DNA of 64,000 nucleotides, taken from the NCBI GenBank assembly GCA_949358305.1, contig OX442314.1, positions 27,404,001 to 27,468,000 on the forward strand, read 5' to 3'. The notes beneath the pieces were generated by a model. It searched no databases. It was not told where the DNA came from and saw only the letters and a program-made list of their open reading frames with translations. Of this stretch, positions 9,937 through 47,316 are shown one piece after another. The translations under genes were made by a program, and so were the position numbers. Each line of letters starts with the position of its first letter. Positions within the stretch are counted from its first letter, which is position 1. This DNA comes from Strigamia acuminata. Lineage: Eukaryota.

Positions 9937-10015
9937 GATGAAGAAAATGTGAAATGATTAAATAAATAACTCAAAAAACTAACCTTTTCGCGCGTTTAAG
10001 CCTTATAGGTGAGAG

Positions 10016-14341: not shown

Positions 14342-17300
14342 TTAGTATTTTTTCTTTAATTTAAGTAACTCAGAAATCAGCTTTTGCAAGAGTTGTGGAA
14401 TTGCAAGAATAGAAAGGCCAAGCATCAGTGAAAAACAATTTCCAATGTCACAACACAATGCAACTCCAGTGTAGGATGATACTTGTTTAAACTCTTCAAT
14501 TATGTTATTCAGTGGAATTATTGAAAGAACTTTGATTGGCCATGCATCGGGATGTTGAAAGTAAACATATGTGTCAAACACTTGTTCTTCACAAAGTGGA
14601 TGACAACCGCACTCTTTCATTACATTAATAGTTAAAGATCTGTTCATGAACAATGCCAGTGAAGTTTTAGCATCTTCAATATTAGTACAATCATCCTTTT
14701 TGATGTTGACCAAAAATGGTAACCTGAAAATATTTGAATAACCTATATTATAAACTACATCGTAGAACGTTTAGTACAAAGTTCGAAAGTGTCATTTCTT
14801 TGGTTTTTTTTATTTTGTTGAACAAAGAAAAACCGAACAAATGATACGTATGACAAATTTCTGCATAAATATTAAAAGAAAAAATACTCACTTGCACTGA
14901 ATTTTATTATAAATCTTTTTTTCGTAGCAATCTTCTTGGCATCTTGTGTGTTTGTCTCGGTCAAGGCAAGGTTGAGATTGTAAATTCAATCGGATGGTCT
15001 AAATTAAAACAATTGGTTAAGCAGTTTTGTTTACAATTGTCTGCAAACATACTTTAAACATTTTGAATGTGACAACGGTAAACGTTTTTGTTTTAATAGA
15101 TCTTCTGCTCTTGAGAATTGATGGAATGGATGGGATTGTGGCTTCGCTTGGTTGAAAGTACACCTGCGGAAAGAAAAAAACATTTTATCGTAGTACTCAA
15201 GATCAGTTTGCTTCTGATGAAATAGCCTTGCAGTTAACTAAAATACAAGATGGTGTATGTATACTTTATCTCCGTGCATTCTGCTAAGGTCTATAGTAAA
15301 TTTCTTACGGCATTATTTAGTTGTATTATGACAGTAAGTTTGTGCAGTTAGCTAAACGTCTACAGCAGCGGTCGGCAATAGGGGGACCGCGGAAGGTCGA
15401 AACTTGGATCGCGGTGACGTTTTAGCGACGTTTTTCTTTCGGTTTCTTTGGTTTTTCGGTGTTTTTTTCTTGTTTTTCCTGTTTTTTTCCCGTGTTTTTT
15501 AGGTTTAATTGGTATTTTTTGGGTTGTGTGTGTTTATTGGGGGATTTATTTGGTTTTTAAGTGTTTTTTCCGTTTTCTTAGGTTTTTAGTAAGGCTTTTA
15601 AGTGTTTTTTTTTCTAGACCGTGATACAAATTTTCAATAGTATCCGGACCCCACTTAAAATTAATTGCTGACCCCTGGCCTACAGTATACGCCAAGTGCA
15701 ATGCACTTATCTGAGTGCAAATGACAAATGGAACTTATTCATTACTTCGTACTCATCTGGCTTACAGCTTTGATGCTTGTTTGGTCGAAAACTAAAATAT
15801 ATTGCTGTAACAACACCTGCATATGTTAGTGGACCTAAGAAAACAATGTTGTTTTAGTAGTCCTATAATGTTTGCACACATTTTTAATTACGCATTTGAG
15901 ATTGATAGCATGTTCCTGTGTGCATTGGTATTTTGCTCCAAGATACATTCGATCTGAATCCAAAGTTCTGATAAGAAAATACTTTTACCGTTGTATATAA
16001 TTTTGTTAAATTTGGTTGAATTTGATTAAAGGCACGAGTTTCATCTAGCACTCACTTTTTATCTAATAAGTTACATTTATCAAACGCCTTTTGAATCAAT
16101 GGCTTTGTTCACACAATGCTTATCGACCCGTTGACACAACAGACATTTTTAAATATCGGACCAAACACTTACACTTTCAGAAAATTCCATGGCGATCGTA
16201 TTCATTATGGGTGTTTGAAATCTCCATACATCTTCCATCGATGATTTTTTCCCTCTGATAGTCTTATTCATTAAATCAATGAAGTGAATTTTACATTCTG
16301 GAATGCCTGTAGTGTTGGCATATTGGTTCCTGTAGTGTGTCATTAAGGGTCCATCCATACATGCAATTACGTTGGGCAAATATAATGTGTCATTTTCTTG
16401 AATATTTACTACATATCTTGTCGGTTCGCTCAAATATAATGTGATTCTTTCTTTGCTCACATAAACCGCTAGTAAGCCGGAAATAAAAACAAGAATACGA
16501 TACAACGTGCGTTGAAGCTTGGGCGAAGTTTTCATTGTTTTTTTCGTCAAATTTTCCAATTTGATTTGATTAACAATTTTAGTTTTTATCTGAGCATGTA
16601 GTCGAACAGGTCTGATATAATTGCAGAAGAGGAGCAAACCAAAGTGTACAATTTCAATTATAGAGAGGAGTGACAATCCCAAGCAAAATCCTAGGTTGCC
16701 GCCCAAATCGATGACCAAATTAGGAATTTTGTAAATGTAGATTTCTGTCATCCACACAGATGTTTCTTGTGACACTTTAAAATTAATACTTGTACGATTT
16801 ATATTACTGGGTTCATCTTCAAAATCTAGCAGTTAAAAATAAATAATTTCATGACATTTATGCGTTAAAATGATATTGTTTGACTTAACTAGTATCGGTG
16901 TGCACTATTAGGAGATAAACTCTTGTTTGACAAGGTCTTAAGCAACCACATTCAATTGTTGCCAGCGTGGATGTTTCGGGTATATACGAGTTTTTATACA
17001 CTTGATCCACGATTGATTTGTTTGCTTCTAAACTGCAGTCTGGCAGATTTTTGTCAGCCATGTAAGGCAATCTATCAAGTAAGTTAACCATCTATTAGCA
17101 TCCTAATGAATGATCAATGTTTACGTTAAGTAAGTTTAAACCTGCACTTAGGATTGGTTTTGAGATTTTGCTTGGTCACACAGTCTTTATAACATTCGGT
17201 CTGCTTCTTCAGACTGGGCTCACAGTAGGGGTTTCTTGAAGGCAAAAATTGATACTTGCAGGAAAGAAATACAGTTTTACTATTTTGGTTATACAAGTAT

Positions 17301-20191
17301 GTGTTGATTTATAAATTAAATGTATTATAAAAGATTTATAAATCATATGTATTATAAAAGATTTATAAATCATATGTATTATAAAAGATTTATAAATCAT
17401 ATGTATTATAAAAGATTTATAAATCATATGTATTATAAAAGATTTATAAATCATATGTATTATAAAAGATTTATAAATCATATGTATTATAAAAGATTTA
17501 TAAATCATATGTATTATAAAAGCATAGAGATAACTAATTATTCAATGCGATTCACAGTTGAATAAGCTGCAAGAACTATACAAACAAGCAATTATAACTC
17601 ACTTGACGCAAAATAAATTGAAATTCAGCTTCAATTCCCATCTGTATTGGTATAGTATATCTATACGGCATGACACCATCCTTCATTGACATCTAGCATT
17701 AAAATGTGTTATGTATATTATTAGCCTTGTGTGCGGTAGCGGTATACCACACCGCGGTAATTTTTTGGGACGCAACACTGCGGTATTCAGCAAAATACCG
17801 CAAAACGGTATACCGCAATATCGCAAATATCGCAATACTGGATAATACTGCAATACCGCATATACCACAAAAAGCTGCAACAAACTAAATGGCGCTTTAA
17901 CCAATTGATCTGAAATTCTATCTAAACGCATAATGCCTTATACCAAAACGGTACATTTTACGGGTCACTACAAAACATGGGGTACACCCCAATTGGGGTA
18001 CCCCATGGGGTATACCCCAAAGTCCTAAAAATAAACAAATAATCATAAATGTAATAATTATAATGTAAACATTTTCTTGTTCTCTAAAAAAAAATAAAAA
18101 TTTCAAATGTTTTTACTCAAAAAAACGAAAATTTCATTTGTGTTACCGTCTGTCTCACATTTTCCAACTACCCTTCATATAGCTTGAAACCCAGACACAA
18201 GTGATCAATAATAATCGTCCCCATGGCCAATCACATAGCTCCATGCATCTTGGGCTATAATATGGCGCCAAACTCGATTTTTGAACTGTTTAATCCGATG
18301 CGTGGAATTGTAGGACAAGAAAATTTGTTTTTACACGAAAAAGCATGAATTTCTCACCAATAAAATTTATTGACACCTAAAAACTTTGTATTTATACCAA
18401 ACTAATTTGTTTCCTTCTGAAATAATTTGTTTTTTCCCGAAATAATTTGTTTTTTCTCAAATAATTTTTATTTACACATTCTGTATTGATATTTCCTCTC
18501 ATTGTGCACCCCCAGCACTCTATTGGAGACCTGCTTGCGGTCTGAGAAAGGCCTGCACGTGTCAACCATCACAAAAATCACAAAAATAAATTTTTTGACT
18601 AAAAAATCGATGATTTTATTCAACAATAAATCTTTAAAGAACATTACAATTCGATAAAAATGAAGAAAAAACGATAAAAATCGGTTTTATCAATTTTTAC
18701 CGATTTTTATCGATTTTTACCGATTTTTATCGATTTTTACTGATTTTTATCGTTTTTTCTCCATTTTTATCGATTTTTTTAAATCGATTTGTAATGTTTT
18801 TTAAAGATTTATTGTTGAATAAAATAATCGATTTTTGAGTCAAATAATCGATTTCTTAGTCAAATAATTGATTTTTTAGTCAAATAATCGATTTTTGAGT
18901 CAAAAAATTTATTTTTGTGATTTGTAAGTCAAAAAATAAATTTCTGTGATTTGTGAGTCAAAAAATTGATTTTTTTGATTTCTAACATGTAATGTCATGT
19001 TTTTGTATGTAATTTAAATTTTTTTTTTTGTAATTTTCATTTCAATTATTTTACTAATTTTTTTTTATTTATTACACATTCCAGGACTTTGGGGTATACC
19101 CCATGGGGTACCCCATTTGGGGTACACCCCGTGTTTTGCAGTGACCCACATTTTACTTTTATCCTTCCATTGGTTAAAAATACCGGATAAGGCTACTGGT
19201 AGGTGCGGGCTATTTTGTCTAATCAGTTTATTTGACGCCATCTTTATGGCAACGACTATAGCAAGCTGATTTGACGAATCGATTTTGACAAAATAAACTG
19301 ACCGTAATCATTGGTGCTTTACAGGTCCCATTTTTCTTAACGACGACATTAAATTTTCTGTTTAGAGCTAGTTTTAAATCTAGAAAAAATAGTTTAGTCA
19401 AAAATTATTTAAACAGACTAGATGATTATCGTATATTAATTTCACCTGTTATTGTCACAGTCAGTGTACGGCCTACTACATAATCGTTGTATTTTAATGC
19501 AATTGTTTTACCCCGATTTGTATAATTGCCACTTTTTATCTTAGTGCCAAGTAACACAGTTTTGTCCTAAAAAAAGTTATTGGCAAATTATTGGAAACAA
19601 TATTTATTAATATGGCTTTTTTACGTATCCAAAAGAACATACTGTATAGTAAATATAATTTCTTTTTAAATTGCATAAAGGAATAATGTTACTTACCTGT
19701 CTAAATTTTATGTGCTGCAAATTTTCTGAAATGTTGGAATGTTCCCACAAGTGAGAATAATTTTCAACCTTGACTTGCTGTGAGATGATTCCTCTCACTG
19801 GGAGCCTGCAATCTCTCATTAACTCTTGTGCACCATCAATTGTGTTCGGTTCTGGTATTTTGACCCAGTACTTTGACATCAATGGAGTATCTAGGCCCGT
19901 GAGCATAATTTCAGGGAATCTGTTTTCCTGTATTGGAACATATTCGATTTCAACTTTGAAAGGTCCAGTCATGTAGAAGCAAAATCTTTCCCAAGTTTGA
20001 TAACTGAAGATGCCGAAGCAAACGACCAAACCAAGCAACCAAATGAAACGAAGTATACCAGTGTTCTCGAGAACTTGGTTTATAAATTGAAAACTATCTT
20101 TGCCCGTTAGTGAAGTTTGCATTTTTTGTTGCACATATTGGCGAATACGGTTACGGGTCCGACGAATAAGCAACGCTCTAGGAGCCGTCAT
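14342..20191 (-). CDS. Double-domain DEG/ENaC (pickpocket/ASIC-like) channel gene, copy 1, about 11 exons
   Basis: Exon 1 20191-19697 with TM1 (RFIWLLGLVVCFGIFSYQ) and FPEI; Cys-rich thumb (ECGCLRPC); TM2 DLGGNLGFCLGLS; second TM1 + LPNVIAC in the same exon (16825-16173); GTCY; ECGCHPLC; second TM2 DIGNCFSLMLGLS; GT-AG introns. Confidence 0.85.
15366..15677. mobile_element. hAT-like MITE in channel intron (also 23350-23661 and 32226-32543)
   Basis: TIRs CAGCGGTCGGCAA / TTGCTGACCCCTG, near-perfect 8-bp TSD gtctacag/gcctacag; absent from copies 4 and 5. Confidence 0.7.
17320..17522. repeat. 27-bp intronic minisatellite (ATGTATTATAAAAGATTTATAAATCAT), 7 units plus a partial
   Basis: Direct tandem repeats; gives the MYYKRFINH periodic ORF. 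Confidence 0.95.
17962..19147. mobile_element. Non-autonomous DNA transposon with long TIRs and 9-bp TSD (Mutator-like), copy 1
   Basis: GGGTCACTACAAAACATGGGGTACACCCC... and ...GGGGTACACCCCGTGTTTTGCAGTGACCC; TSD ACATTTTAC on both sides; empty site in copy 3 at ~34657. Confidence 0.85.
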
Positions 20192-22325: not shown

Positions 22326-25300
22326 TTAGTATTTTTTCTTTAATTTAAGTAACTCAGAAATCAGCTTTTGCAAGAGTTGTGGAATTGCAAGAATAGAAAG
22401 GCCAAGCATCAGTGAAAAACAATTTCCAATGTCACAACACAATGCAACTCCAGTGTAGGATGATACTTGTTTAAACTCTTCAATTATGTTATTCAGTGGA
22501 ATTATTGAAAGAACTTTGATTGGCCATGCATCGGGATGTTGAAAGTAAACATATGTGTCAAACACTTGTTCTTCACAAAGTGGATGACAACCGCACTCTT
22601 TCATTACATTAATAGTTAAAGATCTGTTCATGAACAATGCCAGTGAAGTTTTAGCATCTTCAATATTAGTACAATCATCCTTTTTGATGTTGACCAAAAA
22701 TGGTAACCTGAAAATATTTGAATAACCTATATTATAAACTACATCGTAGAACGTTTAGTACAAAGTTCGAAAGTGTCATTTCTTTGGTTTTTTTTATTTT
22801 GTTGAACAAAGAAAAACCGAACAAATGATACGTATGACAAATTTCTGCATAAATATTAAAAGAAAAAATACTCACTTGCACTGAATTTTATTATAAATCT
22901 TTTTTTCGTAGCAATCTTCTTGGCATCTTGTGTGTTTGTCTCGGTCAAGGCAAGGTTGAGATTGTAAATTCAATCGGATGGTCTAAATTAAAACAATTGG
23001 TTAAGCAGTTTTGTTTACAATTGTCTGCAAACATACTTTAAACATTTTGAATGTGACAACGGTAAACGTTTTTGTTTTAATAGATCTTCTGCTCTTGAGA
23101 ATTGATGGAATGGATGGGATTGTGGCTTCGCTTGGTTGAAAGTACACCTGCGGAAAGAAAAAAACATTTTATCGTAGTACTCAAGATCAGTTTGCTTCTG
23201 ATGAAATAGCCTTGCAGTTAACTAAAATACAAGATGGTGTATGTATACTTTATCTCCGTGCATTCTGCTAAGGTCTATAGTAAATTTCTTACGGCATTAT
23301 TTAGTTGTATTATGACAGTAAGTTTGTGCAGTTAGCTAAACGTCTACAGCAGCGGTCGGCAATAGGGGGACCGCGGAAGGTCGAAACTTGGATCGCGGTG
23401 ACGTTTTAGCGACGTTTTTCTTTCGGTTTCTTTGGTTTTTCGGTGTTTTTTTCTTGTTTTTCCTGTTTTTTTCCCGTGTTTTTTAGGTTTAATTGGTATT
23501 TTTTGGGTTGTGTGTGTTTATTGGGGGATTTATTTGGTTTTTAAGTGTTTTTTCCGTTTTCTTAGGTTTTTAGTAAGGCTTTTAAGTGTTTTTTTTTCTA
23601 GACCGTGATACAAATTTTCAATAGTATCCGGACCCCACTTAAAATTAATTGCTGACCCCTGGCCTACAGTATACGCCAAGTGCAATGCACTTATCTGAGT
23701 GCAAATGACAAATGGAACTTATTCATTACTTCGTACTCATCTGGCTTACAGCTTTGATGCTTGTTTGGTCGAAAACTAAAATATATTGCTGTAACAACAC
23801 CTGCATATGTTAGTGGACCTAAGAAAACAATGTTGTTTTAGTAGTCCTATAATGTTTGCACACATTTTTAATTACGCATTTGAGATTGATAGCATGTTCC
23901 TGTGTGCATTGGTATTTTGCTCCAAGATACATTCGATCTGAATCCAAAGTTCTGATAAGAAAATACTTTTACCGTTGTATATAATTTTGTTAAATTTGGT
24001 TGAATTTGATTAAAGGCACGAGTTTCATCTAGCACTCACTTTTTATCTAATAAGTTACATTTATCAAACGCCTTTTGAATCAATGGCTTTGTTCACACAA
24101 TGCTTATCGACCCGTTGACACAACAGACATTTTTAAATATCGGACCAAACACTTACACTTTCAGAAAATTCCATGGCGATCGTATTCATTATGGGTGTTT
24201 GAAATCTCCATACATCTTCCATCGATGATTTTTTCCCTCTGATAGTCTTATTCATTAAATCAATGAAGTGAATTTTACATTCTGGAATGCCTGTAGTGTT
24301 GGCATATTGGTTCCTGTAGTGTGTCATTAAGGGTCCATCCATACATGCAATTACGTTGGGCAAATATAATGTGTCATTTTCTTGAATATTTACTACATAT
24401 CTTGTCGGTTCGCTCAAATATAATGTGATTCTTTCTTTGCTCACATAAACCGCTAGTAAGCCGGAAATAAAAACAAGAATACGATACAACGTGCGTTGAA
24501 GCTTGGGCGAAGTTTTCATTGTTTTTTTCGTCAAATTTTCCAATTTGATTTGATTAACAATTTTAGTTTTTATCTGAGCATGTAGTCGAACAGGTCTGAT
24601 ATAATTGCAGAAGAGGAGCAAACCAAAGTGTACAATTTCAATTATAGAGAGGAGTGACAATCCCAAGCAAAATCCTAGGTTGCCGCCCAAATCGATGACC
24701 AAATTAGGAATTTTGTAAATGTAGATTTCTGTCATCCACACAGATGTTTCTTGTGACACTTTAAAATTAATACTTGTACGATTTATATTACTGGGTTCAT
24801 CTTCAAAATCTAGCAGTTAAAAATAAATAATTTCATGACATTTATGCGTTAAAATGATATTGTTTGACTTAACTAGTATCGGTGTGCACTATTAGGAGAT
24901 AAACTCTTGTTTGACAAGGTCTTAAGCAACCACATTCAATTGTTGCCAGCGTGGATGTTTCGGGTATATACGAGTTTTTATACACTTGATCCACGATTGA
25001 TTTGTTTGCTTCTAAACTGCAGTCTGGCAGATTTTTGTCAGCCATGTAAGGCAATCTATCAAGTAAGTTAACCATCTATTAGCATCCTAATGAATGATCA
25101 ATGTTTACGTTAAGTAAGTTTAAACCTGCACTTAGGATTGGTTTTGAGATTTTGCTTGGTCACACAGTCTTTATAACATTCGGTCTGCTTCTTCAGACTG
25201 GGCTCACAGTAGGGGTTTCTTGAAGGCAAAAATTGATACTTGCAGGAAAGAAATACAGTTTTACTATTTTGGTTATACAAGTATGTGTTGATTTATAAAT

Positions 25301-28148
25301 TAAATGTATTATAAAAGATTTATAAATCATATGTATTATAAAAGATTTATAAATCATATGTATTATAAAAGATTTATAAATCATATGTATTATAAAAGAT
25401 TTATAAATCATATGTATTATAAAAGATTTATAAATCATATGTATTATAAAAGATTTATAAATCATATGTATTATAAAAGCATAGAGATAACTAATTATTC
25501 AATGCGATTCACAGTTGAATAAGCTGCAAGAACTATACAAACAAGCAATTATAACTCACTTGACGCAAAATAAATTGAAATTCAGCTTCAATTCCCATCT
25601 GTATTGGTATAGTATATCTATACGGCATGACACCATCCTTCATTGACATCTAGCATTAAAATGTGTTATGTATATTATTAGCCTTGTGTGCGGTAGCGGT
25701 ATACCACACCGCGGTAATTTTTTGGGACGCAACACTGCGGTATTCAGCAAAATACCGCAAAACGGTATACCGCAATATCGCAAATATCGCAATACTGGAT
25801 AATACTGCAATACCGCATATACCACAAAAAGCTGCAACAAACTAAATGGCGCTTTAACCAATTGATCTGAAATTCTATCTAAACGCATAATGCCTTATAC
25901 CAAAACGGTACATTTTACGGGTCACTACAAAACATGGGGTACACCCCAATTGGGGTACCCCATGGGGTATACCCCAAAGTCCTAAAAATAAACAAATAAT
26001 CATAAATGTAATAATTATAATGTAAACATTTTCTTGTTCTCTAAAAAAAAATAAAAATTTCAAATGTTTTTACTCAAAAAAACGAAAATTTCATTTGTGT
26101 TACCGTCTGTCTCACATTTTCCAACTACCCTTCATATAGCTTGAAACCCAGACACAAGTGATCAATAATAATCGTCCCCATGGCCAATCACATAGCTCCA
26201 TGCATCTTGGGCTATAATATGGCGCCAAACTCGATTTTTGAACTGTTTAATCCGATGCGTGGAATTGTAGGACAAGAAAATTTGTTTTTACACGAAAAAG
26301 CATGAATTTCTCACCAATAAAATTTATTGACACCTAAAAACTTTGTATTTATACCAAACTAATTTGTTTCCTTCTGAAATAATTTGTTTTTTCCCGAAAT
26401 AATTTGTTTTTTCTCAAATAATTTTTATTTACACATTCTGTATTGATATTTCCTCTCATTGTGCACCCCCAGCACTCTATTGGAGACCTGCTTGCGGTCT
26501 GAGAAAGGCCTGCACGTGTCAACCATCACAAAAATCACAAAAATAAATTTTTTGACTAAAAAATCGATGATTTTATTCAACAATAAATCTTTAAAGAACA
26601 TTACAATTCGATAAAAATGAAGAAAAAACGATAAAAATCGGTTTTATCAATTTTTACCGATTTTTATCGATTTTTACCGATTTTTATCGATTTTTACTGA
26701 TTTTTATCGTTTTTTCTCCATTTTTATCGATTTTTTTAAATCGATTTGTAATGTTTTTTAAAGATTTATTGTTGAATAAAATAATCGATTTTTGAGTCAA
26801 ATAATCGATTTCTTAGTCAAATAATTGATTTTTTAGTCAAATAATCGATTTTTGAGTCAAAAAATTTATTTTTGTGATTTGTAAGTCAAAAAATAAATTT
26901 CTGTGATTTGTGAGTCAAAAAATTGATTTTTTTGATTTCTAACATGTAATGTCATGTTTTTGTATGTAATTTAAATTTTTTTTTTTGTAATTTTCATTTC
27001 AATTATTTTACTAATTTTTTTTTATTTATTACACATTCCAGGACTTTGGGGTATACCCCATGGGGTACCCCATTTGGGGTACACCCCGTGTTTTGCAGTG
27101 ACCCACATTTTACTTTTATCCTTCCATTGGTTAAAAATACCGGATAAGGCTACTGGTAGGTGCGGGCTATTTTGTCTAATCAGTTTATTTGACGCCATCT
27201 TTATGGCAACGACTATAGCAAGCTGATTTGACGAATCGATTTTGACAAAATAAACTGACCGTAATCATTGGTGCTTTACAGGTCCCATTTTTCTTAACGA
27301 CGACATTAAATTTTCTGTTTAGAGCTAGTTTTAAATCTAGAAAAAATAGTTTAGTCAAAAATTATTTAAACAGACTAGATGATTATCGTATATTAATTTC
27401 ACCTGTTATTGTCACAGTCAGTGTACGGCCTACTACATAATCGTTGTATTTTAATGCAATTGTTTTACCCCGATTTGTATAATTGCCACTTTTTATCTTA
27501 GTGCCAAGTAACACAGTTTTGTCCTAAAAAAAGTTATTGGCAAATTATTGGAAACAATATTTATTAATATGGCTTTTTTACGTATCCAAAAGAACATACT
27601 GTATAGTAAATATAATTTCTTTTTAAATTGCATAAAGGAATAATGTTACTTACCTGTCTAAATTTTATGTGCTGCAAATTTTCTGAAATGTTGGAATGTT
27701 CCCACAAGTGAGAATAATTTTCAACCTTGACTTGCTGTGAGATGATTCCTCTCACTGGGAGCCTGCAATCTCTCATTAACTCTTGTGCACCATCAATTGT
27801 GTTCGGTTCTGGTATTTTGACCCAGTACTTTGACATCAATGGAGTATCTAGGCCCGTGAGCATAATTTCAGGGAATCTGTTTTCCTGTATTGGAACATAT
27901 TCGATTTCAACTTTGAAAGGTCCAGTCATGTAGAAGCAAAATCTTTCCCAAGTTTGATAACTGAAGATGCCGAAGCAAACGACCAAACCAAGCAACCAAA
28001 TGAAACGAAGTATACCAGTGTTCTCGAGAACTTGGTTTATAAATTGAAAACTATCTTTGCCCGTTAGTGAAGTTTGCATTTTTTGTTGCACATATTGGCG
28101 AATACGGTTACGGGTCCGACGAATAAGCAACGCTCTAGGAGCCGTCAT
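22326..28148 (-). CDS. Double-domain DEG/ENaC gene, copy 2 (translated exon ORFs identical to copy 1)
   Basis: ORF-track peptides identical to copy 1 at offsets 7984 and 7957. Confidence 0.85.
25304..25479. repeat. 27-bp minisatellite, 6 units plus a partial
   Basis: Same unit as at 17320; one unit fewer, explaining the 7984 to 7957 offset change. Confidence 0.95.
25919..27104. mobile_element. Mutator-like non-autonomous element, copy 2
   Basis: Same TIRs and ACATTTTAC TSD as 17962-19147. Confidence 0.85.
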
Positions 28149-30282: not shown

Positions 30283-33200
30283 TTAGTATTTTTTCTTTAA
30301 TTTTAATAACTTAGAAACCAGCTTTTGCAAGAGTTGTGGAATTGCAAGAATAGAAAAGCCAAGCATCAGTGAAAAACAATTTCCAATGTCACAACACAGT
30401 GCAACTTCAGTGTAGGATAATACTTGTTTAAACTCTTCAATTATGTTATTCAGTGGAATTATTGAAAGAACTTTGATTGGCCATGCATCGGGATGTTGAA
30501 AGTAAACATATGTGTCAAACACTTGTTCTTCACAAAGTGGATGACAACCGCACTCTTTCATTACATTAATAGTTAAAGATCTGTTCATGAACAATGCCAA
30601 TGAAGTTTTAGCATCTTCAATATTAGTACAATCATCCTTTTTGATGTTGACCAAAAATGGTAACCTGAAAATATTTGAATAACACATTACAAACTACATC
30701 GTAGAACGTTTAGTACAAAGTTCGAAAGTGTCATTTCTTTGGGTTTTTTATTTTGTAAAGAAAGAAAAACCACTAAAATGATACGTATGACAAATTTCTG
30801 CGTGAATGCTAAAAGAAAAAATACTCACTTGCACTGAATTTCATTATATATCTTTTTTTCGTAGCAATCGTCTTGGCATCTTTCGTGTTTGTCTCTGTCA
30901 AGGCAAGGTTGAGATTGTAAATTCAATCGGATGGTCTAAATTAAAGCAATTAGTTAAGCAGTTTTGTTTAGAATTGTCTGCAAACATCGTACTTTAAACA
31001 TTTTGAATGTGAGAATGGTAAACGTTTTTGTTTTAATAGATCTTCTGCTCTTGAGAATTGATGGAATGGATGGGATTGTCGCTTCGCTTTGTTGAAAGTA
31101 CACCTGCAGAAAGAATAATATAATTTATTGTAGTATTCAAGATCAGTTTGCTTCTGATGAAATAGCCTTGCAGTTAACTAACAAGGGGAGCACATGAATA
31201 ACACACTCACAGATTGTTGTCATATTAAACAAGAAGGATTGTTATATCATGCTGAATGAGACCCTAAAGTTATTTCATTCCATAAACAGCCAACAATGCA
31301 AACAATGAGCTGAAAGTTGGCACTATTTTGTCTGTGTATACATCCAATCTGAGCAATCAGGCCTAGTGTATGAATACGATAAACAACAGTTGCTAGGTAA
31401 AAAGTAGTTCCAAGATCCAAGTTGAATTTTATCATTTGATATTCAATGATGTCATTTCATCATTTGAGATTTAATGATGTCATGACATCAGAATTTTGTT
31501 TACCAACATGACTGTCTTCATGAAGACAACAATAGTTTGTAGTGGTGGTCCAGTGGTTAAGGCAATGGACTAGGAATCTTTCTACACAGGTTCAAATCCT
31601 GATGTGTTTGAAAATTTTTACTCCTATTTTTTAAATTTTTTTTGCAGTAATTTTAATGTTTGTAATTTTATGTTTGTTAAAAAATTAAAATTAATTAATT
31701 ATTAAAGTTTTCTAAAAACAAACATAAAATTACAAACATTAAAATTACTGCTAAAAAAAATTAAAAAACAAAAGTAAAAATTTTCACAGACAGCAGGATT
31801 TGAACCTGTGTGGAAAGATTCCTAGTCCATTGCCTTAACCACTGGACCACCACTACAAACTACTATTGTCTTCATGAAGACAGTCATGTTGGTGAATAAA
31901 GTTGTGATGTCATATGTCATGAGATATCAAATGATGAAATGACCTCATTGAATATCAAATGATAAAATTCAACTTGGATCTTGGAACTACTTTTTACCTA
32001 GCAACTGTTGTTTATCGTATTCATACACTAGGCCTGATTGCTCAGATTGGATGTATACACAGACAAAATAGTGCCAACTTTCAGCTCATTGTTTGCATTG
32101 TTGGCTGTTTATGGAATGAAATAACTTTAGGGTCTCATTCAGCATGATATAACAATTCTTCTTGTTTAATATGACAACAATCTGTGAGTGTGTTATTCAT
32201 GTGCTCCCCTTGTAAGCGTCTACAGCAGCGGTCGACAATAGGCGGATGCGGAAGGTCGAAACTTGGACCGCGGTGACGTTTTAGCGACGTTTTTCTTTCG
32301 GTTTCTTTGGTTTTTCTTTTTCGGTGTTTTTTTCTTGTTTTTCCTGTTTTTTTTCCGTGTTTTTTTAGGTTTTATTGGTATTTTTTGGGTTGTGTGTGTT
32401 TATTGGGGGATTTTTTGGTTTTTAAATGTTTTTTCCGTTTTCTTAGGTTTTTAGTAAGGCTTTTAAGTGTTTTTTTTTTCTACACCGGGATAAAAATTTT
32501 CAATAGTATCCGGACCCCACTTAAAATTAATTCCCAACCCCTGGCCTACAGTATATGCCAAGTGCAATGCACTTATCTGAGTGCAAATGACAAATGGAAC
32601 TTATTCATTACTTCGTAGTCATCTGGCCTACAGATTTGGCGACTGTTTGGTCGAAAACTAAAATATATTGCTGTAGCAACACCTGCATATGTTAGTGGAC
32701 CTAAGAAAACAATGTTGTTTTAGTAGTCCTATAATGTTTGCACACATGTTTAATTACCCATTTGAGATTGATAGCATGTTCCTGTGTGCATTGGTATTTT
32801 GCTCCAAGATACATTTGATCTGAATCCTAAGTTCTGATAAGAAAATACTTTTACCGGTCTACATAATTTTCTTAAATTTGGTTGAATTTGATTAAAGTCA
32901 CGAGTTTCATTTAGCACTCACATTTTATCTAATAAGTTACATTTATCAAACGCCTTTTGAATCAATGGCTTTGTTTACATAATGCTTATGGACTCATTGA
33001 CTCAACAGACATTTTTAAATATCGGACCAAACACTTACACTTTCAGCAAATTCCATGATGACCTTATCCATTACGGGTGTTTGAAATCTCCATATATCTT
33101 CCATCGATGATTTTTTCCCTCCGATAGTCTTATTCATTAAATCAATGAAGTGAATTTTACATTCTGGAATGCCTGTAGTTTTGGCATATTGGCTTCTGTA

Positions 33201-35700
33201 GTGTGTCATTAAGGGTCCATCCATACATGCAATGACGTTGGGCAAATATAATGTGTTATTTTCTTGAATATTTACTACATATCTTGTCGGTTCGCTCAAA
33301 TATAATGCGATTCTTTCTTTGCTCACATAAACCGCTAGTAAGCCGGAAATAAAAACAAGAATACGATACAAGGTGCGTTGAAGCTTGGGCGAAGTTTTCA
33401 TTGTCTTTTTCTTCAAATTTTCCAATTTGATTTGATTAACAATTTTGGTTTTTATCTGAGCATGTAGTCGAACAGGTCTGATATAATTGCAGAAGAGGAG
33501 CAAACCAAAGTGTACAATTTCAATTATAGAGAGGAGTGACAATCCCAAGCAAAATCCTAGGTTGCCGCCCAAATCAATCACCAAATTAGGGATTTTGTAA
33601 ATGTAGATTTCTGTCATCCACACAGATGTTTCTTGTGACACTTTAAAATTAATACTTGTACGATTTATATCACTGGGTTCATCTTCAAAATCTAGCAGTT
33701 AAAGATAAATAATTTCATTATATTTATGCGTTAAAATGATATTGTTTGACGTAACTAGTATCGGTGTGCACTATTAGGAGATAAACTCTTGTTTGACAAG
33801 GTCTTAAGCAACCACATTCAATTGTTGCCAGCGTGGATGTTTCGGGTTTATACGAGTTTTTGTACACTTGATCCACGATTGATTTGTTTGCTTCTAACTG
33901 CAGTCTGGCAGATTTTTGTCAGCCATGTAAGGCAATCTATCAAGTAAGTTAACCATCTATTAGCATCCTAATGAATGATCAATGTTTACGTTAAGTAAGT
34001 TTAAACCTGCACTTAGGATTGGCTTTGAGATTTTGCTTGGTCACACAGTTTTTATAACATTCGGTCTGCTTCTTCAGACTGGGCTCACAGTAGGGGTTTC
34101 TTGAAGGCAAAAATTGATACTTGCAGGAAAGAAATACAGTTTTACTATTTTGGTTATACAAGTATGTGTTGATTTATAAATTAAATGTATTATAAAAGAT
34201 TTATAAATCATATGTATTATAAAAGCATAGAGATAACTAATTATTCAATGCGATTCACAGTTGAATAAGCTGCAAGAACTATACAAACAAGCAATTATAA
34301 CTCACTTGACGCAAAATAAATTGAAATTCAGCTTCAATTCCCATCTGTATTGGCATAGTATATCTATACGGCATGACACCATCCTTCATTGACATCTAGC
34401 ATTAAATGGTGGTATGTATATTATTTGTCTTGTGTGCGGTAGCGGTATACCGCACCGCGGTAATTTTTTGGGACGCAACACTGCGGTATTCAGCAAAATA
34501 CCGCAAAACGGTATACCGCAATACCGCAAATACCGCAATACCGGATAATACTACAATACCGCAAATACCACAAAAAGCTGCAACAAACTAAATGGCGCTT
34601 TAACCAATTGATCTGAAATTCTATCTAAACGCATAATGCCTTATACCAAAACGGGTACATTTTACTTTTATCTTTCCAACGGTTAAAAATACCGGATAAG
34701 GCTACCGATAGGTGCAGGCTATTTTGTCTAATCAGTTTATTTGACGCCATCTTTATGGCAACGACTATAGCAAGCTGATTTGACGAATCGATTTTGACAA
34801 AATAAACTGACCGTAATCATTGGTGCTTTACAGGTCCCATTTTTCTTAACGACGACATTAAATTTTCTGTTTAGAGCTAGTTTTAAATCTAGAAAAAAAA
34901 GTTTAGTCAAAAATTATTTAAACAGACTAGATGATTATCGTATATTAATTTCACCTGTTATTGTTACAGTCAGTGTACGGCCTACTACATAATCGTTGTA
35001 TTTTAATGCAATTGTTTTACCCCGATTTGTATAATTGCCACTTTTTATCTTAGTGCCAAGTAACACAGTTTTGTCCTAAAAAAAGTTATTGGCAAATTAT
35101 TGGAAACAATATTTATTAATATGACTTTTTTACGTATCCAAAAGAACATACTGTATAGTAAATATAATTTCTTTTTAAATTGCATAAAGGAATAAGGTTC
35201 CTTACCTGTCTGAATTTTATGTGCTGCAAATTTTCTGAAATGTTGGAATGTTCCCACAAGTGAGAATAATTTTCAACCTTGACTTGCTGTGAGATGATTC
35301 CTCTCACTGGGAGCCTGCAATCTCTCATTAACCCGCTTGCACCATCAATTGTGTTCGGTTCTGGTATTTTGTCCCAGTACTTTGACATCAATGGAGTATC
35401 TAGGCCCATGAGCATAACTTCAGGGAATCTGTTTTCCTGTATTGGAACATATTCAATTTCAACTTTGAAAGGTCCAGTCATGTAGAAGCGAAATCTTTCC
35501 CAAGTTTGATAACTGAAGATGCCGAAACAAACGACTAAACCAAACAACCAAATGAAACGAAGTATTCCAGTGTTCTCGAGAACTTGGTTTATAAATTGAA
35601 AACTATCTTTGTCCGTCAATGAAGTTATCATCTTTCGTTGCACGAATTGGCGAATACGATTACGGGTCCGGCGAATAAACAACGCTCTAGGAGCCGTCAT
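30283..35700 (-). CDS. Double-domain DEG/ENaC gene, copy 3; 1-bp deletion near 33896 (pseudogene or sequencing error)
   Basis: Homologous exons; cttctaactg versus cttctaaactg in the other copies shifts the thumb exon frame. Confidence 0.7.
31539..31605 (+). pseudogene. tRNA-Ser-derived sequence (A and B boxes), left arm
   Basis: GTAGTGGTGGTCCAGTGGTTAAGGCAATGGACTAGGAATC...CAGGTTCAAATCCTG resembles tRNA-Ser GTAGTCGTGGCCGAGTGGTTAAGGCGATGGACTAGAAATC...CAGGTTCGAATCCTG; variable arm shortened, acceptor stem poor. Confidence 0.65.
31787..31856 (-). pseudogene. tRNA-Ser-derived sequence, right arm
   Basis: Reverse complement of the left-arm tRNA-like segment. Confidence 0.65.
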
Positions 35701-41126: not shown

Positions 41127-41718
41127 TAATTCATCAATTTCGAATGGAGTAATGAGCGCAAACAGTGAGCACAATACGAATTTATTTTTTTCGAAATACA
41201 AATTTGTTGACTACAATATTCGGTCCTGTCTTTCCCCCTGTAGGCTATGGCTGTTGGGAGGGACAGGATTACTTAGGTAATATCAATAAATTATTACGGA
41301 GTATATTATTATTAATACAAGGGAGCCATGTTAGTTGCAAAACGTGTTAAAAGTGGAAAAAATTCCACAGATTCATTAGTATGCGCAAATAACTTTGCAG
41401 CAAGTGATAAAACATGACTCAATTGGTAGTTTGTGCATTACATAACTGATTGCACATTCACTCGGCATGCAATTACGGCAAAACTGAATAATAATGTCCA
41501 AAAAGCAATAACAAAGACAAGTGTACTCTCTGTGGTGCGGACATAAGCTTAGGACAGGCGTGTGAAAGTTGTCAGGTCCAGCAGTGATGCATCTACATCA
41601 TGTGAGGCTCCGAGGCCCAGTGTAACTTTGAGGCTTCACATGCGAATTTCCGGTCGGACAGTCTTTTTAGCAGCCTTTTTTCGTGCCCTAATTATATACA
41701 ACTTCACACAGATGGTGA

Positions 41719-44700
41719 CTATTTTTTCTTTACTTTTAGTAACTTCGAAACCAGCTTTTGCAAGAGTTGTGGAATTGCAAGAATAGAAAAGCCAAGCATC
41801 AGTGAAAAACAATTTCCAATGTCACAACACAGTGCAACTCCAGTGTAGGATAATACTTGCTTAAACTCTTCAATTATGTTATTCATTGGAATTATTGAAA
41901 GGACTTTGAATGGCCATGCTGCTGTGTGTTGAAAGTAAACATATGTGTCAAACACTGGTTCTTCACAAAGTGGATGACAACCACACTCTTTCATTACATT
42001 AGTAGTTAAAGATCTGTTCATGAACAATGCCAATGAAGTTTTAGCGTCTTCAATATTGGTACAATCATTCTTTTTGAGGTTGACCAAAAATGGTAACCTA
42101 AAAATATTTGAATAACATATATTATAAACTACATCGTAGAACGTTTAGTACAAAGTTCGCGAGTGTCTTTTTAAAAGCTTTTATTAAAGGCTTTTATTAA
42201 AGGCTTTTATTTAACTTGACTTGAATGTTTGTGTGTGGGGTTCAACCTTGGACTAATGAGTCCAAGGTTCAACTTCCGGTTTGTGTAATGTCCACAAACA
42301 ATGAATTAAAAAATTAATCGTAAGATTGGGAAGTAGACTTTTCCGGTGCAGTTTTTGATCTACTTTTCAATTATAACAATAAAATTAATATTAAAAGTAG
42401 TTAAAGGGAGAAAATGTTAAATTACGGCGAAATGTAATGGAAAACAGTGTCACCTGGCGGAACCTATGTCCTTTAATGGATGCCAAAATGTTCGCCCGAT
42501 ACGAATTTTGATGATTTCGGCACAAAAAAAGAATTTATAAATTCTAAAACTAAGCTACCGTAAATCTGGTTAAAATGAAAATTCCTATTTGCCCATATAT
42601 TTTGTTTTTTAATATTGTTAAGAAAAAGTACTTTTTTGAAATTTTTGTTTCAATCACGAAACAATCTGCGGTAGTAGCGCACTCTGGTGGCGATTTGAAG
42701 CCCCAAAATGACGTCACCCATTCGTGATTTATGCGGCGTATACGTTTTTGATTGACGCCAACTCTGTCACCGATAGGCCTCTTTCTCTTAGTACCGCTCT
42801 TGCATCGTTTTGGCTTGCACCCTCTCATAGTTTCCAGCATATCTACCGCCAACGCCTCAATACGCTCGCGTAACTCTTCCGACGGACACCGACCCAGATC
42901 CGCGAAGAGAACCTTGACCCTCTCGCAGACGGAAGGTGCACCGAAGAATAGCATAAAAGCCTTTTTCCAAAAACGTACCATAGTTCTTTTGTTTTACTTG
43001 TTTTGGTTTTTTTTATTTTGCTGAACAAAGAAAAACCGAACAAATAATACGTATGACAAATTTCTGCATAAATATTAAAAGAAAAAATACTCACTTGCAC
43101 TGAATTTCATTATAAATCTTTTTTTCGTAGCAATCTTCTTGGCATCTTGTGTGTTTGTCTCGGCCAAGGCAAGGTTGAGATTGTAAATTCAATCGGATGG
43201 TCTAAAATAAAACAATTGGTTAAGCAGTTTTGTTTAGATTTGTCTGCAAACATACTTTAAACATTTTGAATGTGAGAATGGTAAACGTGTTTGCTTTAAT
43301 ACTTCTTCTACTTCCTAGAATTGAGGGAATTGATGGAATTGTTGCTTCGCTTTGTTGAAAGTACACCTGCAGAAAGAAAATTATATTTTATCACTGTATT
43401 AAAGATCAGTTTGATTCTGATGAAATAGCCTTGCAGTTAACTAAAATACAAGATGGTGCAGGTATATTTTATCTTCGTGCATACTGCTAACTTGTAAGGT
43501 CTATAGTAAATTTCTTACAGCATTAATTAGTTAATTATGACTAGATCTTGGATAAATGCATAAATGCATAGAATATATTTATATTGAATAAAAAGCCGAA
43601 ATTGGCTTAAATTGCATATTTTGCGAAAATCGGTAAATAAATGCAAACCGGTAAATTGCCTTTTTTCCAGGAAAAAACGGCGATTTGTGTCTTTTTTTAA
43701 TGATATGTAACATGTACGTATCAATTTTTGCCTTTTTTTTAAAGACGTGTATCGTGTACATATGCTTTATATTCGGAAAACTGAGGACTTCGCCAATAAC
43801 AGACACCAAGGGAATCACTAAATGAGTGTCTAGAAAATATTTTCAGAAATAAACAAAAAAAAAATTAAAAAAAAGAAAGAAATGAATTGTAATTACTAAT
43901 TATAATTCATTTACATCAAGAACACTTGGAAATAGCATTACTTCAGAGCTTTGAACTAGAAGGAGCTCTCGAGTGAACTTTGAACTAGAATGAGCTCTCA
44001 GTTCAAAGTTCAAAGTTCACTCAAATAAATTTTTTTATTTTGCATAAAATGGAATTTTTGGTGCATATAAAACGAAATTTATTTTTCATAAATATCTGGG
44101 GTCTAAATGACGGAGTTTGTGTAGTTAGCTAAGCTCCTATTTGCCAAGTGCAATGTGCTTATTTTAGTGCTGTGTAAGATCAACAGTTGGTGAGAAATAG
44201 GAATTTATTCATTACTTCGTACTCATCTGGCTTACAGATTTGACGACTGTTTGGTCGAAAACTAAAAAATATTGCTGTAGCAACACCTGCATATGTTAGT
44301 GGACCTAAGAAAACAATGTTGTTTTAGTAGTCCTATAATGTTTGCACACATTTCTAATTACGCATTTGAGATTGATAGCATGTTCCTGTGTGCATTGGTA
44401 TTTTGGTCCAAGATACATTCGATCTGAATCCTGTGTTCTGATAAGAAAATACCTTTTACCAGTGAATTCAGTTACCTTAAATTTGGGAGAATTTAAGTAA
44501 AGGCACGAGTTTCATCTAGCACTCACATTTTATCTAATAAGTTACATTTACCAAATGCCTTTTGAATCAATGGCTTTGTTTACACAATGCTTATCGACCC
44601 ATTGACCCAACAGAATACAGAAAATTTTAATTATCGGATCAAACACTTACACTTTCAGCATATTCCATGGTGACCTTATCTATTACGGGTGTTTGAAATC

Positions 44701-47316
44701 TCCATACATCTTCCATCGATGATTTTTTCCCTCTGATAGTCTTATTCATTAAATCAATGAAGTGAATTTTACATTCTGGAATGCCTGTAGTGTTGGCGTA
44801 TTGGCTTCTGTAGTGTGTCATTAAGGGTCCGTCCATACATGCAATAATGTTGGGCAGATATAATGTGTCATTTTCTTGAATATTTACTACATATCTTGTC
44901 GGTTCGCTCAAATATAATGCGATTCTTTCTTTGCTCACATAAACTGCTAGTAAGCCGGAAATAAAAACAAGAATACGATACAAGGTGCGTTGAAGCTTAG
45001 GCGAAGTTTCCATTGTCTTTTTCTTCAAATTTTCCAAATTGATTTGATTAACAACTTTTGTTTTTATCTGAGTTTGTAGTCGAACAGGCCTGATATAATT
45101 GCAGAGGAGGAGCAAACCAAAGTGTACAATTTCGATTATAGAGAGGAGAGACAATCCCAAGCAAAATCCTAGGTTGCCGCCCAAATCGATGACCAAATTA
45201 GGAATTTTGTAAATGTAGATTTCTGTCATTCTGACAAATGTTTCTTCCATCGCTTTAAATTTTATACTTGCTAAATCTTTACTACTGGGTTCATCTTCAA
45301 AATCTAACAGTGAAAGATGAATAATTTTGTTATAATTACACGTCAAAATGATATTGTTCGACTTAACTAGTATCGGTCTGCACTATTAGGAGATAAACTC
45401 TCGTTTGACAAGGTCTTAAGCAACCACATTCAATTGTTGCCAGCGTGGATGTTTTGGGTTTGAACGAGTTTTCGTACACTTGAGCCACGATTGATTTGTT
45501 TGCTTCTAAACTGCAGTCTGGCAGAATTTTGTCAGCCATGTAAGGCAACCTAAGTTAACCATCTATTAGCATACTAATGAATGATCAATGTGTACGTTAA
45601 GTAAGTTTAAACCTGCACTTTGGATCGGTTTTGAGATTTTGCTTGGTCACACAGTCTTTATAACATTGGGTTTGCTTTATCAGGCTGGGCTCATAGTAGG
45701 GCTTTCTTGAAGGCAAAAATTGATACTTGCAGAAAAGAAATACAATTTTACTATTTTAGTTATATGTATTGATTTACAAATCAAATGTATTATAAATGCA
45801 TAGAGATAACTAATCATGCAACGCGATTCACAGTTGAATAAGCTGCAAGAAATATACAAGCAAGCAATTATAACTCACTTGACGCAAAATAAATGGAACT
45901 TCAACTTCAATTCCCATCTGTATTGTAAAAGTATATCTATACGGCAGGACACCATCCTTCGCAGACATCTATTATTAAATTGTGTTATGTATATTATATT
46001 AATTTTACACTAGGTGCATTCAAAATATCATGTTTCAAATGTTTTGTTTGTTTTTCTTATTCTTTTTTTGACATCAGAAATCAAAAACACAAATCCATAC
46101 AGTGGTCGCCAAAAGTTTAGCACCACTACTGTCATTTGCACTATTTAGTGCTTTTACAACAAGTAAAACCTGCAGCGTCTTTGTGATATAAAATATAAAT
46201 TTGCCATTAAATTCTAAATTCTTAAATGCTAAAACATTTAAACAAATCATACATTGTAATTAACAATAGTAATTTTTAGTGTTTGTATACAAATTGTTGC
46301 TGGACAAAGGTTTAGTACCAAATTCAAAAATGCACAAAAAACCTGGTTTCTTCAGAAAATCATTATTTATTTGAACAATATATTTCAATATTTTGTTGGC
46401 TAACCAACTAATAAGTTGATTTGACTTATCGATTTTGCAAAATGAACTGACCGTAATCATTGGTGTTTTACAGGTCCCATTTTTCTTAAAGACGACATTA
46501 AATATTCTGTTTAGAGCTAGTTTTACATCTAAAAAAAATTGCTTAGTCAAAAATTATATAACCAGACAAGATAATTATCGTATATTAATTTTACCTGTTG
46601 TTACAATCAGTGTACGGCCAAAAACATAATCGTTGTATTTTAATGCAAATGTTTTACCCTGATTTGTATAATTGCCACTTTTTATCTTAGTGCCAAGTAA
46701 CACAGTTTTGCCCTAAAAAAGTTATTGGCAACAATATTTGTTAATACGGATTTCTTAGGTATCCAAAAGAACAGTATATATAATTTCTTTTTAAATTGCA
46801 CAAAGGAATAAGGTAACTTGCCTGTTTGATTTTGAGGTACTGCATATTTTCTGATATGTTGGAATGTTCCCACAAGTTTGTATAATTTTTAACCTTGACT
46901 TGCTGTGAGATGATTCCTCTCACTGCGAGCCTGCAAGCTTTCATTAACTTTTGTGCACCATCAATTGTATTCGGTTCTGGTATTTTGTCCCAGTACTTCG
47001 ACATCAATGGAGTGTCAAGAGCCATGAGTCTCACTTCAGGGAATCTGTTTTCCTGTATTGGAACAAATTCGATTTCAACTTTGTAAGGTCCAGACATGTA
47101 GAAGCAAAATCTTTCCCAAGTTTGATAACTGAAGATGCCGAAACAAACGACCAAACCAAGCAACCAAATGAAACGAAGTATTCCAGTGTTCTCGAGAACT
47201 TGGTTTATAAATTGAAAACTATCTTTGCCCGTCAGTGAAGTTTGCATTTTTTGTTGCACATATTGGCGAATACGGTTACGGGTCCGACGAATAAGCAACG
47301 CTCTAGGAGCCGTCAT
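41719..47316 (-). CDS. Double-domain DEG/ENaC gene, copy 4
   Basis: Homologous exons (46741-47316, 45363-45548, 44639-45346, 41719-42087 ORFs); TM2-TM1 junction intact. Confidence 0.8.
42167..42990 (+). mobile_element. Helentron/DINE-1-like insertion in the last intron of copy 4
   Basis: Inserted in a T-rich site absent in other copies; AAGGCTTTTAT near the 5' end and ATAAAAGCCTT near the 3' end; internal hairpin CCTTGGACT..AGTCCAAGG. Confidence 0.55.
43542..44105. mobile_element. Probable MITE in copy 4 intron
   Basis: Insertion unique to copy 4; imperfect TIRs TAGATCTTGGATA / TATCTGGGGTCTA; flanking tatgac/aatgac. Confidence 0.45.

What the first reader, a model, noticed from the sequence alone, without database searches (positions are those of the whole stretch)
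16173..16825. Natural two-subunit concatemer of a DEG/ENaC channel, amplified as a five-gene array
Seen: within a single uninterrupted exon, TM2 of one DEG/ENaC domain (VIDLGGNLGFCLGLSLLSIIEIVHF) runs through a ~40-aa basic linker into TM1 and the post-TM1 motif of a second domain (RILVFISGLLAVYVSKERITLYLSEPT...LYLPNVIAC). The second domain then has its own GTCY, ECGC..LC thumb and TM2. The junction is open in all five copies (16149, 24133, 33015, 44639, 57457 ORFs), so it cannot be a gene-prediction merge across an intron. Known: DEG/ENaC/ASIC subunits have two TMs and assemble as trimers. Inference: a 4-TM protein of roughly 850 aa cannot form a simple homotrimer; it would need a 2+1 assembly with a monomeric partner, linked trimers, or cleavage. 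I do not know of a characterised natural example. This is my best candidate for a new system in the window.
Basis: partly seen in the sequence, partly recalled or inferred. Interest (0 to 1): 0.88.

Follow-up and report, generated by a model that had tools for sequence, protein, structure and literature searches.

The report
Two-in-one centipede sodium-channel subunit
Five neighbouring gene copies (four intact) each join two different sodium-channel subunits of the ENaC/ASIC family into one reading frame, a design shared with many unstudied centipede gene models, which would fix two of the three positions of a normally three-part channel and likely needs a third subunit to complete the pore.

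Summary
A 653-nt exon carries TM2 of one DEG/ENaC domain (A), a 39-residue basic linker and TM1 of a second (B) with no stop. A 12-exon model with standard splice sites gives 829-831 aa and four hydrophobic helices. Copy 3 is frameshifted upstream of the junction; copies 1 and 2 have identical coding sequence. A and B are 18% identical, yet 4 of 5 B introns match A introns in position and phase: an old in-frame fusion of two tandem paralogues. It is not a one-off: 20 of 38 database hits match across the junction, 15 of 16 looked up being Strigamia maritima gene models, with linkers of 32-60 residues. A halves form one clade, B halves probably another. A keeps a canonical pore helix; B keeps D0'/G10'/S12' but mostly lacks G3', G6', E18'. 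Best reading (0.5): A and B are neighbours in one trimeric pore, completed by an A-like third subunit. No RNA evidence and no assembly test were obtained. My searches found no described natural DEG/ENaC concatemer; three-unit gene models also turned up.

The parts
14342..20191 (-). Copy 1, whole gene: 12 coding exons, 831 aa, two DEG/ENaC domains
   Evidence: Hand-built model, all 11 introns GT-AG, one open frame
19697..20191 (-). Copy 1 exon 1: 45-residue N-terminus, TM1 of domain A, finger region
   Evidence: Pfam ASC 15-71/455, E 6e-5; hydropathy peak
16890..19566 (-). Copy 1 exons 2-6 (19566-19446, 19379-19303, 17692-17603, 17254-17142, 17071-16890): ectodomain of A with Cys-rich thumb
   Evidence: intron positions compared with B
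16173..16825 (-). Copy 1 exon 7, the junction exon: end of A, linker, start of B
16620..16730 (-). TM2 of domain A (about residues 392-428), canonical pore helix with D0', G3', G6', G10', S12', E18'
16509..16625 (-). 39-residue basic linker (10 K/R, 1 D/E), inferred cytoplasmic; Met457 at 16535
   Evidence: low pLDDT
16428..16508 (-). TM1 of domain B (about residues 466-492)
   Evidence: Helix 101-132 of the exon model; aligns to TM1 of BRTNaC1 and ASIC5
14892..15967 (-). Copy 1 exons 8-11 (15967-15892, 15834-15746, 15163-15053, 14998-14892): ectodomain of B
14342..14723 (-). Copy 1 exon 12: thumb end and TM2 of domain B (N3', S6', Q18'), stop
   Evidence: Pfam ASC 347-449/455; PDB matches BRTNaC1, FaNaC
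22326..28148 (-). Copy 2, 831 aa, coding sequence identical to copy 1; junction exon 24809-24157
30283..35700 (-). Copy 3, frameshifted by a 1-nt deletion in exon 6 (33936-33756); junction exon 33691-33039 itself open
41716..47316 (-). Copy 4, 829 aa, intact; first donor is GC; junction exon 45303-44651
55940..60244 (-). Copy 5, 830 aa, intact; junction exon 58133-57481

Best explanation
The gene's reading frame joins two different DEG/ENaC subunits, A and B, through a short basic linker, and the predicted four-helix protein likely places A and B side by side as two of the three subunits of one pore, with an A-like third subunit likely completing the channel. Shown in the sequence: the fusion, the 12-exon frame, the different pore helices. 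Inferred: origin by in-frame loss of the stop and spacer between two head-to-tail paralogues, once, before the family expanded. Inferred: a cytoplasmic linker, so the chain folds as a ready-made A-B pair; the third position is taken most likely by a separate single-domain subunit (2+1, as in heteromeric pickpocket channels), or else by the A half of a second chain. Inferred: the fusion keeps B, whose pore helix has bulkier residues at the gate and no E18', to one copy per pore. Inferred and weakest: a sensory (chemical, acid or heat) cation channel whose fast-evolving outer domains tune the stimulus.
For: Fusion origin: A and B 18% identical, yet B introns at residues 577, 632, 669 (phase 0) and 704 (phase 2) align with A introns at 165, 231, 261, 298 in position and phase, 4 of 5. 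Family: the whole model is colinear with Strigamia T1JD34 (47-824 vs 44-788, E 3e-56), T1ITL7 and T1J963 (names). Linkers 32-60 aa, 16 of 20 between 32 and 45, each with 8-14 K/R. Tree of 36 domains: all 10 A in one clade (95/90 with a single-domain protein P0035 as sister), all 10 B one side of a branch with weak support (82/63). B keeps D0', G2', G10' and S/T/C12' in 6 of 6, the positions that ASIC needs for function (PMC5449180, passages), but has G3' in 1 of 6, G6' in 2 of 6 and an acidic 18' in 1 of 6, against 20, 18 and 16 of 20 in A. G3' is the narrowest point of centipede PDPNaC1 (Gly375, PMC12714832, passages; alignment). ASIC concatemers keep Na+ preference with one E18' missing but not two, which fits A-B-A-like rather than A-B-B. 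A 1:2 arthropod heterotrimer exists by chain counts (9PZN/9PZO, 2 and 4 chains in 2 entries). Engineered head-to-tail ASIC1a dimers give currents (PMC4529235, passages). AlphaFold2 of the stand-in T1JD34 has four membrane helices and pTM 0.62, which I read as some confidence in how the halves sit; best folds are PDPNaC1 (Z 20.6, rmsd 3.6, 311 aligned) and BRTNaC1. Among copies 1, 3, 4, 5 membrane segments have a pooled nonsynonymous/synonymous ratio of 0.25 (10/277 vs 13/89) and ectodomains 0.78 (164/1445 vs 59/403).
Against: No transcript evidence of any kind. No single-domain DEG/ENaC gene lies in the window, and no genome was held to look for a partner. TM2 of B alone shows ratio 0.69 among the copies (4 nonsynonymous, 2 synonymous), so constraint on it is not shown within the window; whole-gene dN/dS is 0.50-0.84 and one copy is broken. 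The B set is only 6 sequences, found with a pattern that already asked for D/N0', G10' and S/C/T12'. The losses in B's pore helix fit a non-pore role as well. Neither half of the window protein shows the pre-TM1 His-Gly motif seen in BRTNaC1. Engineered ASIC concatemers also gave smaller products suggesting cleavage. The ESM Atlas model of T1JD34 has only pTM 0.53, and I could not inspect coordinates. The homologues are gene models whose DNA I did not see, except that P0021 comes from a 1154-nt contig.
Confidence: 0.5

Rival explanations
1. Three chains form an ordinary A3 pore and the B halves hang outside it as non-conducting accessory sensors or trafficking modules.
For: A alone has the full canonical pore helix; B lacks G3', G6', E18' in most members; TM2 of B is not clearly constrained among the window's copies (0.69).
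Against: B keeps D0', G2', G10', S/T/C12' in 6 of 6 at 22-33% overall identity and a complete ectodomain with thumb cysteines; an unpartnered domain would expose its trimer faces (inference).
Confidence: 0.15
2. Tandem chains assemble without a partner: three chains make two linked pores (A-B-A plus A-B-B) or larger clusters.
For: No partner gene in the window; engineered dimers work when expressed alone.
Against: One linker of about 39 residues, partly helical, would have to bridge two wide ectodomains (inference); an A-B-B pore would carry only one E18' and two bulky gate residues.
Confidence: 0.12
3. The chain is cut in the basic linker, or B is made from its own start at Met457, giving two ordinary two-helix subunits in a fixed 1:1 supply.
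For: Linker has 10 K/R and is poorly ordered; Met sits at a like place in the window copies and T1ITA9; engineered concatemers fragment.
Against: The linker is on the cytoplasmic side by topology, out of reach of furin-type enzymes (established knowledge, recalled); Met is not enriched (16 of 20 vs 13.0 expected) and absent from 4 linkers; A has no stop, donor-like site or poly(A) signal of its own; linker length is conserved.
Confidence: 0.1
4. Two chains form a four-subunit (A-B)2 pore, as two-repeat K2P and TPC channels do.
For: Two is a divisor of four, not three; bulkier gate residues in B would suit a wider pore (inference); one paper argues for tetrameric ASIC1a (PMC4529235).
Against: The closest solved relative PDPNaC1 is a homotrimer and BRTNaC1 entries hold three chains each; three-unit relatives exist in the same clade, which points to a trimer rule.
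Confidence: 0.07
5. The array is a decaying or unexpressed set of duplicates and the fusion has no function.
For: Copy 3 frameshifted; dN/dS up to 0.84; copies 1 and 2 may be an assembly duplicate.
Against: 4 of 5 copies keep a 12-exon open frame and splice sites at about 10% synonymous divergence; same architecture in at least 15 Strigamia models; membrane segments constrained.
Confidence: 0.05

Closest known systems
Centipede PDPNaC1 (PDB 9JF7; PMC12714832) and BRTNaC1 (PDB 8YMR; PMC9974506), Scolopendra antennal DEG/ENaC channels
   Same: Best sequence matches in the PDB for the junction exon (E 5e-6 and 9e-5) and best fold matches for the stand-in; compact ectodomain; about 20% identity.
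   Different: They are single-domain, two-helix subunits of 421 and 431 aa forming trimers; here two unlike domains are in one chain and B has an altered pore helix. No ligand or stimulus can be carried over.
Heteromeric DEG/ENaC channels: vertebrate ENaC and Drosophila pickpocket heterotrimer (PDB 9PZN/9PZO)
   Same: Unequal subunits around one pore; 1:2 make-up by chain counts.
   Different: Their subunits come from separate genes; here two are covalently fixed.
Engineered ASIC1a concatemers (PMC4529235, PMC5449180)
   Same: Head-to-tail TM2-to-TM1 linkage; dimers and trimers give currents.
   Different: Artificial, identical subunits, native tails kept plus a short Gln linker; the natural linker is 32-60 residues in all and joins paralogues of 18% identity.
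Uncharacterised Strigamia maritima gene models T1ITA9, T1JD34, T1ITL7, T1IPM9, T1J963
   Same: Same two-domain layout; T1ITA9 is 64% identical over the junction.
   Different: Automatic models named 'uncharacterized', many fragmentary; no description of the tandem design found in my searches.
Two-repeat channels K2P and TPC (recalled, no call)
   Same: Two channel subunits fused in one chain.
   Different: Those pores are four-fold, so two chains close the ring; a three-fold pore cannot be closed by pairs alone.

Membership tests
DEG/ENaC superfamily | Pfam ASC (PF00858) domain | tested here: met
   Junction exon 46.7 bits against cut-off 23.6, two stretches; exons 1 and 12 match below cut-off on their own (22.7, 19.9); full-length stand-ins 96-118 bits
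DEG/ENaC superfamily | Palm/thumb ectodomain fold between two membrane helices | tested here: met
   Stand-in T1JD34: domain A aligns to PDPNaC1 Z 20.6; domain B has the same element order in the model but was not fold-searched alone; the window's B exons match BRTNaC1/FaNaC by sequence
DEG/ENaC superfamily | Cys-rich thumb | tested here: met
   Eight Cys at 272-346 and eight at 680-749 in matching pattern
DEG/ENaC superfamily | TM2 with D0' and G10'-x-S12' | tested here: met
   Both halves; A 20 of 20, B 6 of 6
DEG/ENaC superfamily | Two membrane helices per polypeptide | tested here: not met
   Four; two per domain. This is the variant feature
DEG/ENaC superfamily | Pre-TM1 His-Gly re-entrant motif (feature recalled; seen in BRTNaC1) | tested here: not met
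   Not present before either TM1 of the window protein; a remnant precedes B in T1JF12 and T1IT41
DEG/ENaC superfamily | Trimeric assembly and cation conduction | not testable with these tools
Insect pickpocket subfamilies | Phylogenetic placement among insect PPKs | tested here: inconclusive
   In the quick tree the beetle and midge rows group apart from A and B, but no named PPK reference set was included
ASIC (proton-gated) | Proton activation and ASIC clade membership | not tested
   ASIC1 matches are weak (E about 0.5); gating not testable here

The most novel reading that the evidence does not exclude
Centipedes run a whole receptor family of natural DEG/ENaC concatemers in which two-unit chains build a pore with no separate partner, either a four-subunit (A-B)2 pore or a double-barrelled pair of linked trimers, alongside three-unit genes that encode an entire channel in one chain; this would be an assembly state not known for the family.
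Probability: 0.2. Interest if true: 0.92.

Novelty: new variant of a known kind. Interest (0 to 1): 0.72.

Why it matters
DEG/ENaC channels are taken to be trimers of two-helix subunits, and which subunits sit where is a standing problem that laboratories attack with artificial concatemers. A natural, old and expanded family of fused pairs shows that evolution hard-wires subunit order in this family, poses a clean arithmetic puzzle (two into three) that one expression and cryo-EM study could settle, and offers a ready-made asymmetric pore. It also warns that multi-domain DEG/ENaC gene models, easily dismissed as merges, can be real, and it points to a large candidate sensory-receptor family in eyeless centipedes.

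Tried and rejected
RNA: no RNA holder listed. The two listed runs X1 and X2 cover introns and exons alike and show no intron-skipping joints among those listed; I treat them as DNA, so they say nothing on expression. A check of copy 3's deletion against these runs was not obtained, so assembly error is not excluded. No whole genome held. Word-index protein searches found nothing new: junction exon against longer proteins 0 of 938 candidates, family alignment 1 of 7988, the query itself, exon 1 0 of 90; weak evidence. Metagenome scans: 0 of 198 and 0 of 101 pattern matches confirmed. ESM Atlas: nearest clusters shown for T1JD34 are single-domain, 376-485 aa; the junction query did not complete. 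A third domain or a monomer gene in the window: none by tblastn. Gene-prediction merge rejected for the window (single exon); the long insect models P0010, P0018, P0004 and leech P0031 were not counted as family members because they group with other lineages (where P0004 was not included) and may be merges. Literature: ten searches; searches used the term 'DEG ENaC', returned 0 and are probably void. Passages read with no mention of a tandem subunit: PMC5203786, PMC12714832 (28, section 11 in 60), PMC7510291, PMC7067487, PMC8438182, PMC9822975, PMC10507113, PMC9974506. PMC8438182 reports 46 of 578 insect PPKs with three to five predicted helices without comment in the passages seen; its supplements were not read. 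Vizueta et al. 2020, which annotated Strigamia candidates according to PMC8438182, was not held and could mention these genes. Earlier scan findings: none on fused subunits.

Full report
Observation. The minus-strand exon 16825-16173 has an AG acceptor and GT donor and no stop. It holds the end of one Pfam ASC domain and the start of another (two stretches, E 3e-12). AlphaFold2 on this exon gives TM2 with a break at GxS, a poorly ordered linker, then a long helix and two strands as at the start of a subunit. The exon is 653 nt and open in all five copies.

Gene model. Twelve exons from 20191 to 14342 give one frame of 831 codons with GT-AG introns; the same boundaries map to the other four copies, one donor being GC. 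Copies 1, 2, 4, 5 give 831, 831, 829, 830 aa. Copy 3 has a 1-nt deletion in exon 6; I could not check it against reads. Copies 1 and 2 are identical in coding sequence and differ by 23 substitutions and 4 gaps, nearly all in the first 800 or so bases of the 8-kb unit, plus one satellite indel: a very recent duplication or an assembly duplicate. Four hydropathy peaks stand clear of the rest. The model has no RNA support, but an internal check is strong: A and B are 18% identical, and 4 of 5 introns in B fall at the aligned position and phase of an intron in A. The fifth pair shares phase but not position, and A has one extra intron. The junction exon is thus the last exon of one paralogue run into the first exon of the next (inference).

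Organism. Not given. The nearest protein is Strigamia maritima T1ITA9, 64% identical, so a geophilomorph centipede is likely (inference).

Family. Of 38 hits among 1.84 billion representatives, 20 match across the junction in one stretch. I looked up 16 of these 20: 15 are S. maritima gene models and one, P0021, is an unnamed ENA protein from a 1154-nt contig. The full model is colinear end to end with T1JD34 and T1ITL7 and over two thirds with T1J963. In 20 A-type junctions (the window's copy 1 and 19 proteins) the linker is 32-60 residues, 16 of them 32-45, with 8-14 basic residues, although identities are mostly 22-33%. That regularity argues against random prediction merges, though I did not see the DNA of those models. 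In a tree of 36 domains (17 of 53 rows dropped: distant insect, leech and unnamed rows, four gappy rows, two near-copies) the 10 A domains form one clade with the single-domain Logan protein P0035 as sister (95/90), the 10 B domains lie on one side of a weak branch (82/63), and A, B and the Strigamia three-unit group are together at 99/97. The 53-row quick tree agreed for A (85) but nested the three-unit group inside B. Long branches meet in both, so one fusion event is the simplest reading, not a proven one.

The halves differ at the pore. Using ASIC prime numbering (PMC5449180, passages; anchored on PDPNaC1 Asp372 and Gly375), A has D0', G3', G10', S12' in 20 of 20, G6' in 18 and an acidic 18' in 16. 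B has D0', G2', G10' and S/T/C12' in 6 of 6, but G3' in 1, G6' in 2 and an acidic 18' in 1. The pattern used to find the helices asked for some of these positions, and six is a small set. Among the window's copies 1, 3, 4, 5 membrane segments pooled are constrained (0.25) and ectodomains much less (0.78); TM2 of B alone is 0.69 on six changes. Whole-gene dN/dS is 0.50-0.84.

Structure. For the stand-in T1JD34, AlphaFold2 gives two full domains, four membrane helices, pLDDT 68.7, pTM 0.62, linker under 50. Best matches are the centipede channels BRTNaC1 and PDPNaC1, two-helix subunits of antennal heat and acid sensors. The VIA rows cover domain A; B was not searched alone.

Mechanism. I favour A and B as neighbours in one trimeric pore with an A-like third subunit (0.5). 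B's retained core positions suggest it lines a pore; its bulky gate residues and missing E18' would be tolerated once per pore, as ASIC concatemers tolerate one missing E18' but not two; 1:2 arthropod heterotrimers exist (chain counts); engineered dimers conduct. All of this is inference. Rivals: A3 pore with B outside (0.15), linked pores from three chains (0.12), cleavage or separate start (0.10), four-subunit pore (0.07), no function (0.05). A cannot be made alone from this exon without a stop or splice signal, and none was found; Met in linkers is at chance level. No partner gene lies in the window. A sensory role is a guess from the nearest relatives and the pattern of array expansion.

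Novelty. Each half is a DEG/ENaC domain; the chain is not a standard subunit. Ten literature searches (two probably void) and passages of ten papers showed no described natural concatemer; one relevant paper and all supplements were not seen, and subscription journals are largely missing. The models sit unnamed in UniProt. Three-unit models in Strigamia (T1IZL2, T1IU28, T1ITG7) and, on a separate branch, the shrimp Halocaridina (KAK7028032, KAK7067251) hint that concatenation arose more than once; these are unverified. Verdict: real, new variant of a known kind, interest 0.72.

Noticed in passing
P0007, P0003, P0011 (Strigamia T1IZL2, T1IU28, T1ITG7): Gene models with repeated near-identical DEG/ENaC units; T1IZL2 has two units and the start of a third, T1IU28 the end of one plus two more. 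Together they suggest a three-unit, single-chain channel. Units form one clade (100/100) next to the B domains. DNA not seen.
   Followed up: partly
P0008, P0020 (Halocaridina rubra KAK7028032, KAK7067251): Two shrimp gene models with three DEG/ENaC units each (Pfam three stretches in P0008; the middle unit of P0020 looks partial); first units group together and third units group together, apart from the centipede family: a possible independent origin of single-chain trimers.
   Followed up: partly
P0035 (Logan, 404 aa): Single-domain protein with a canonical pore helix, sister to all A domains (95/90): the kind of subunit that could fill the third position or represent the unfused state.
   Followed up: partly
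window 13402-21377 and 21377-29357: Copies 1 and 2 are 99.3% identical over 8 kb, with differences bunched at one end; recent duplication, conversion or assembly duplicate.
   Followed up: partly
window 2339-9957 (-): LTR retrotransposon with gag, protease, RT, RNase H and integrase domains in Ty3/Gypsy order (label recalled); pol frame carries a long Pro-rich stretch between RNase H and integrase.
   Followed up: no
window 47950-52667 (-): BEL/Pao retrotransposon (DUF1759, DUF1758, RT, Peptidase_A17, integrase) between copies 4 and 5.
   Followed up: no
window 11035-12060 (+): Integrase-core remnant.
   Followed up: no
window 38517-39716 (+): 399-codon open frame between copies 3 and 4 with no Pfam match.
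   Followed up: no
window 15355-15721 and 17962-19147: High-copy repeats inside introns of copy 1: a 365-nt insertion absent from some copies, and an element with inverted ends. A 27-nt satellite lies at about 17305-17522.
   Followed up: no
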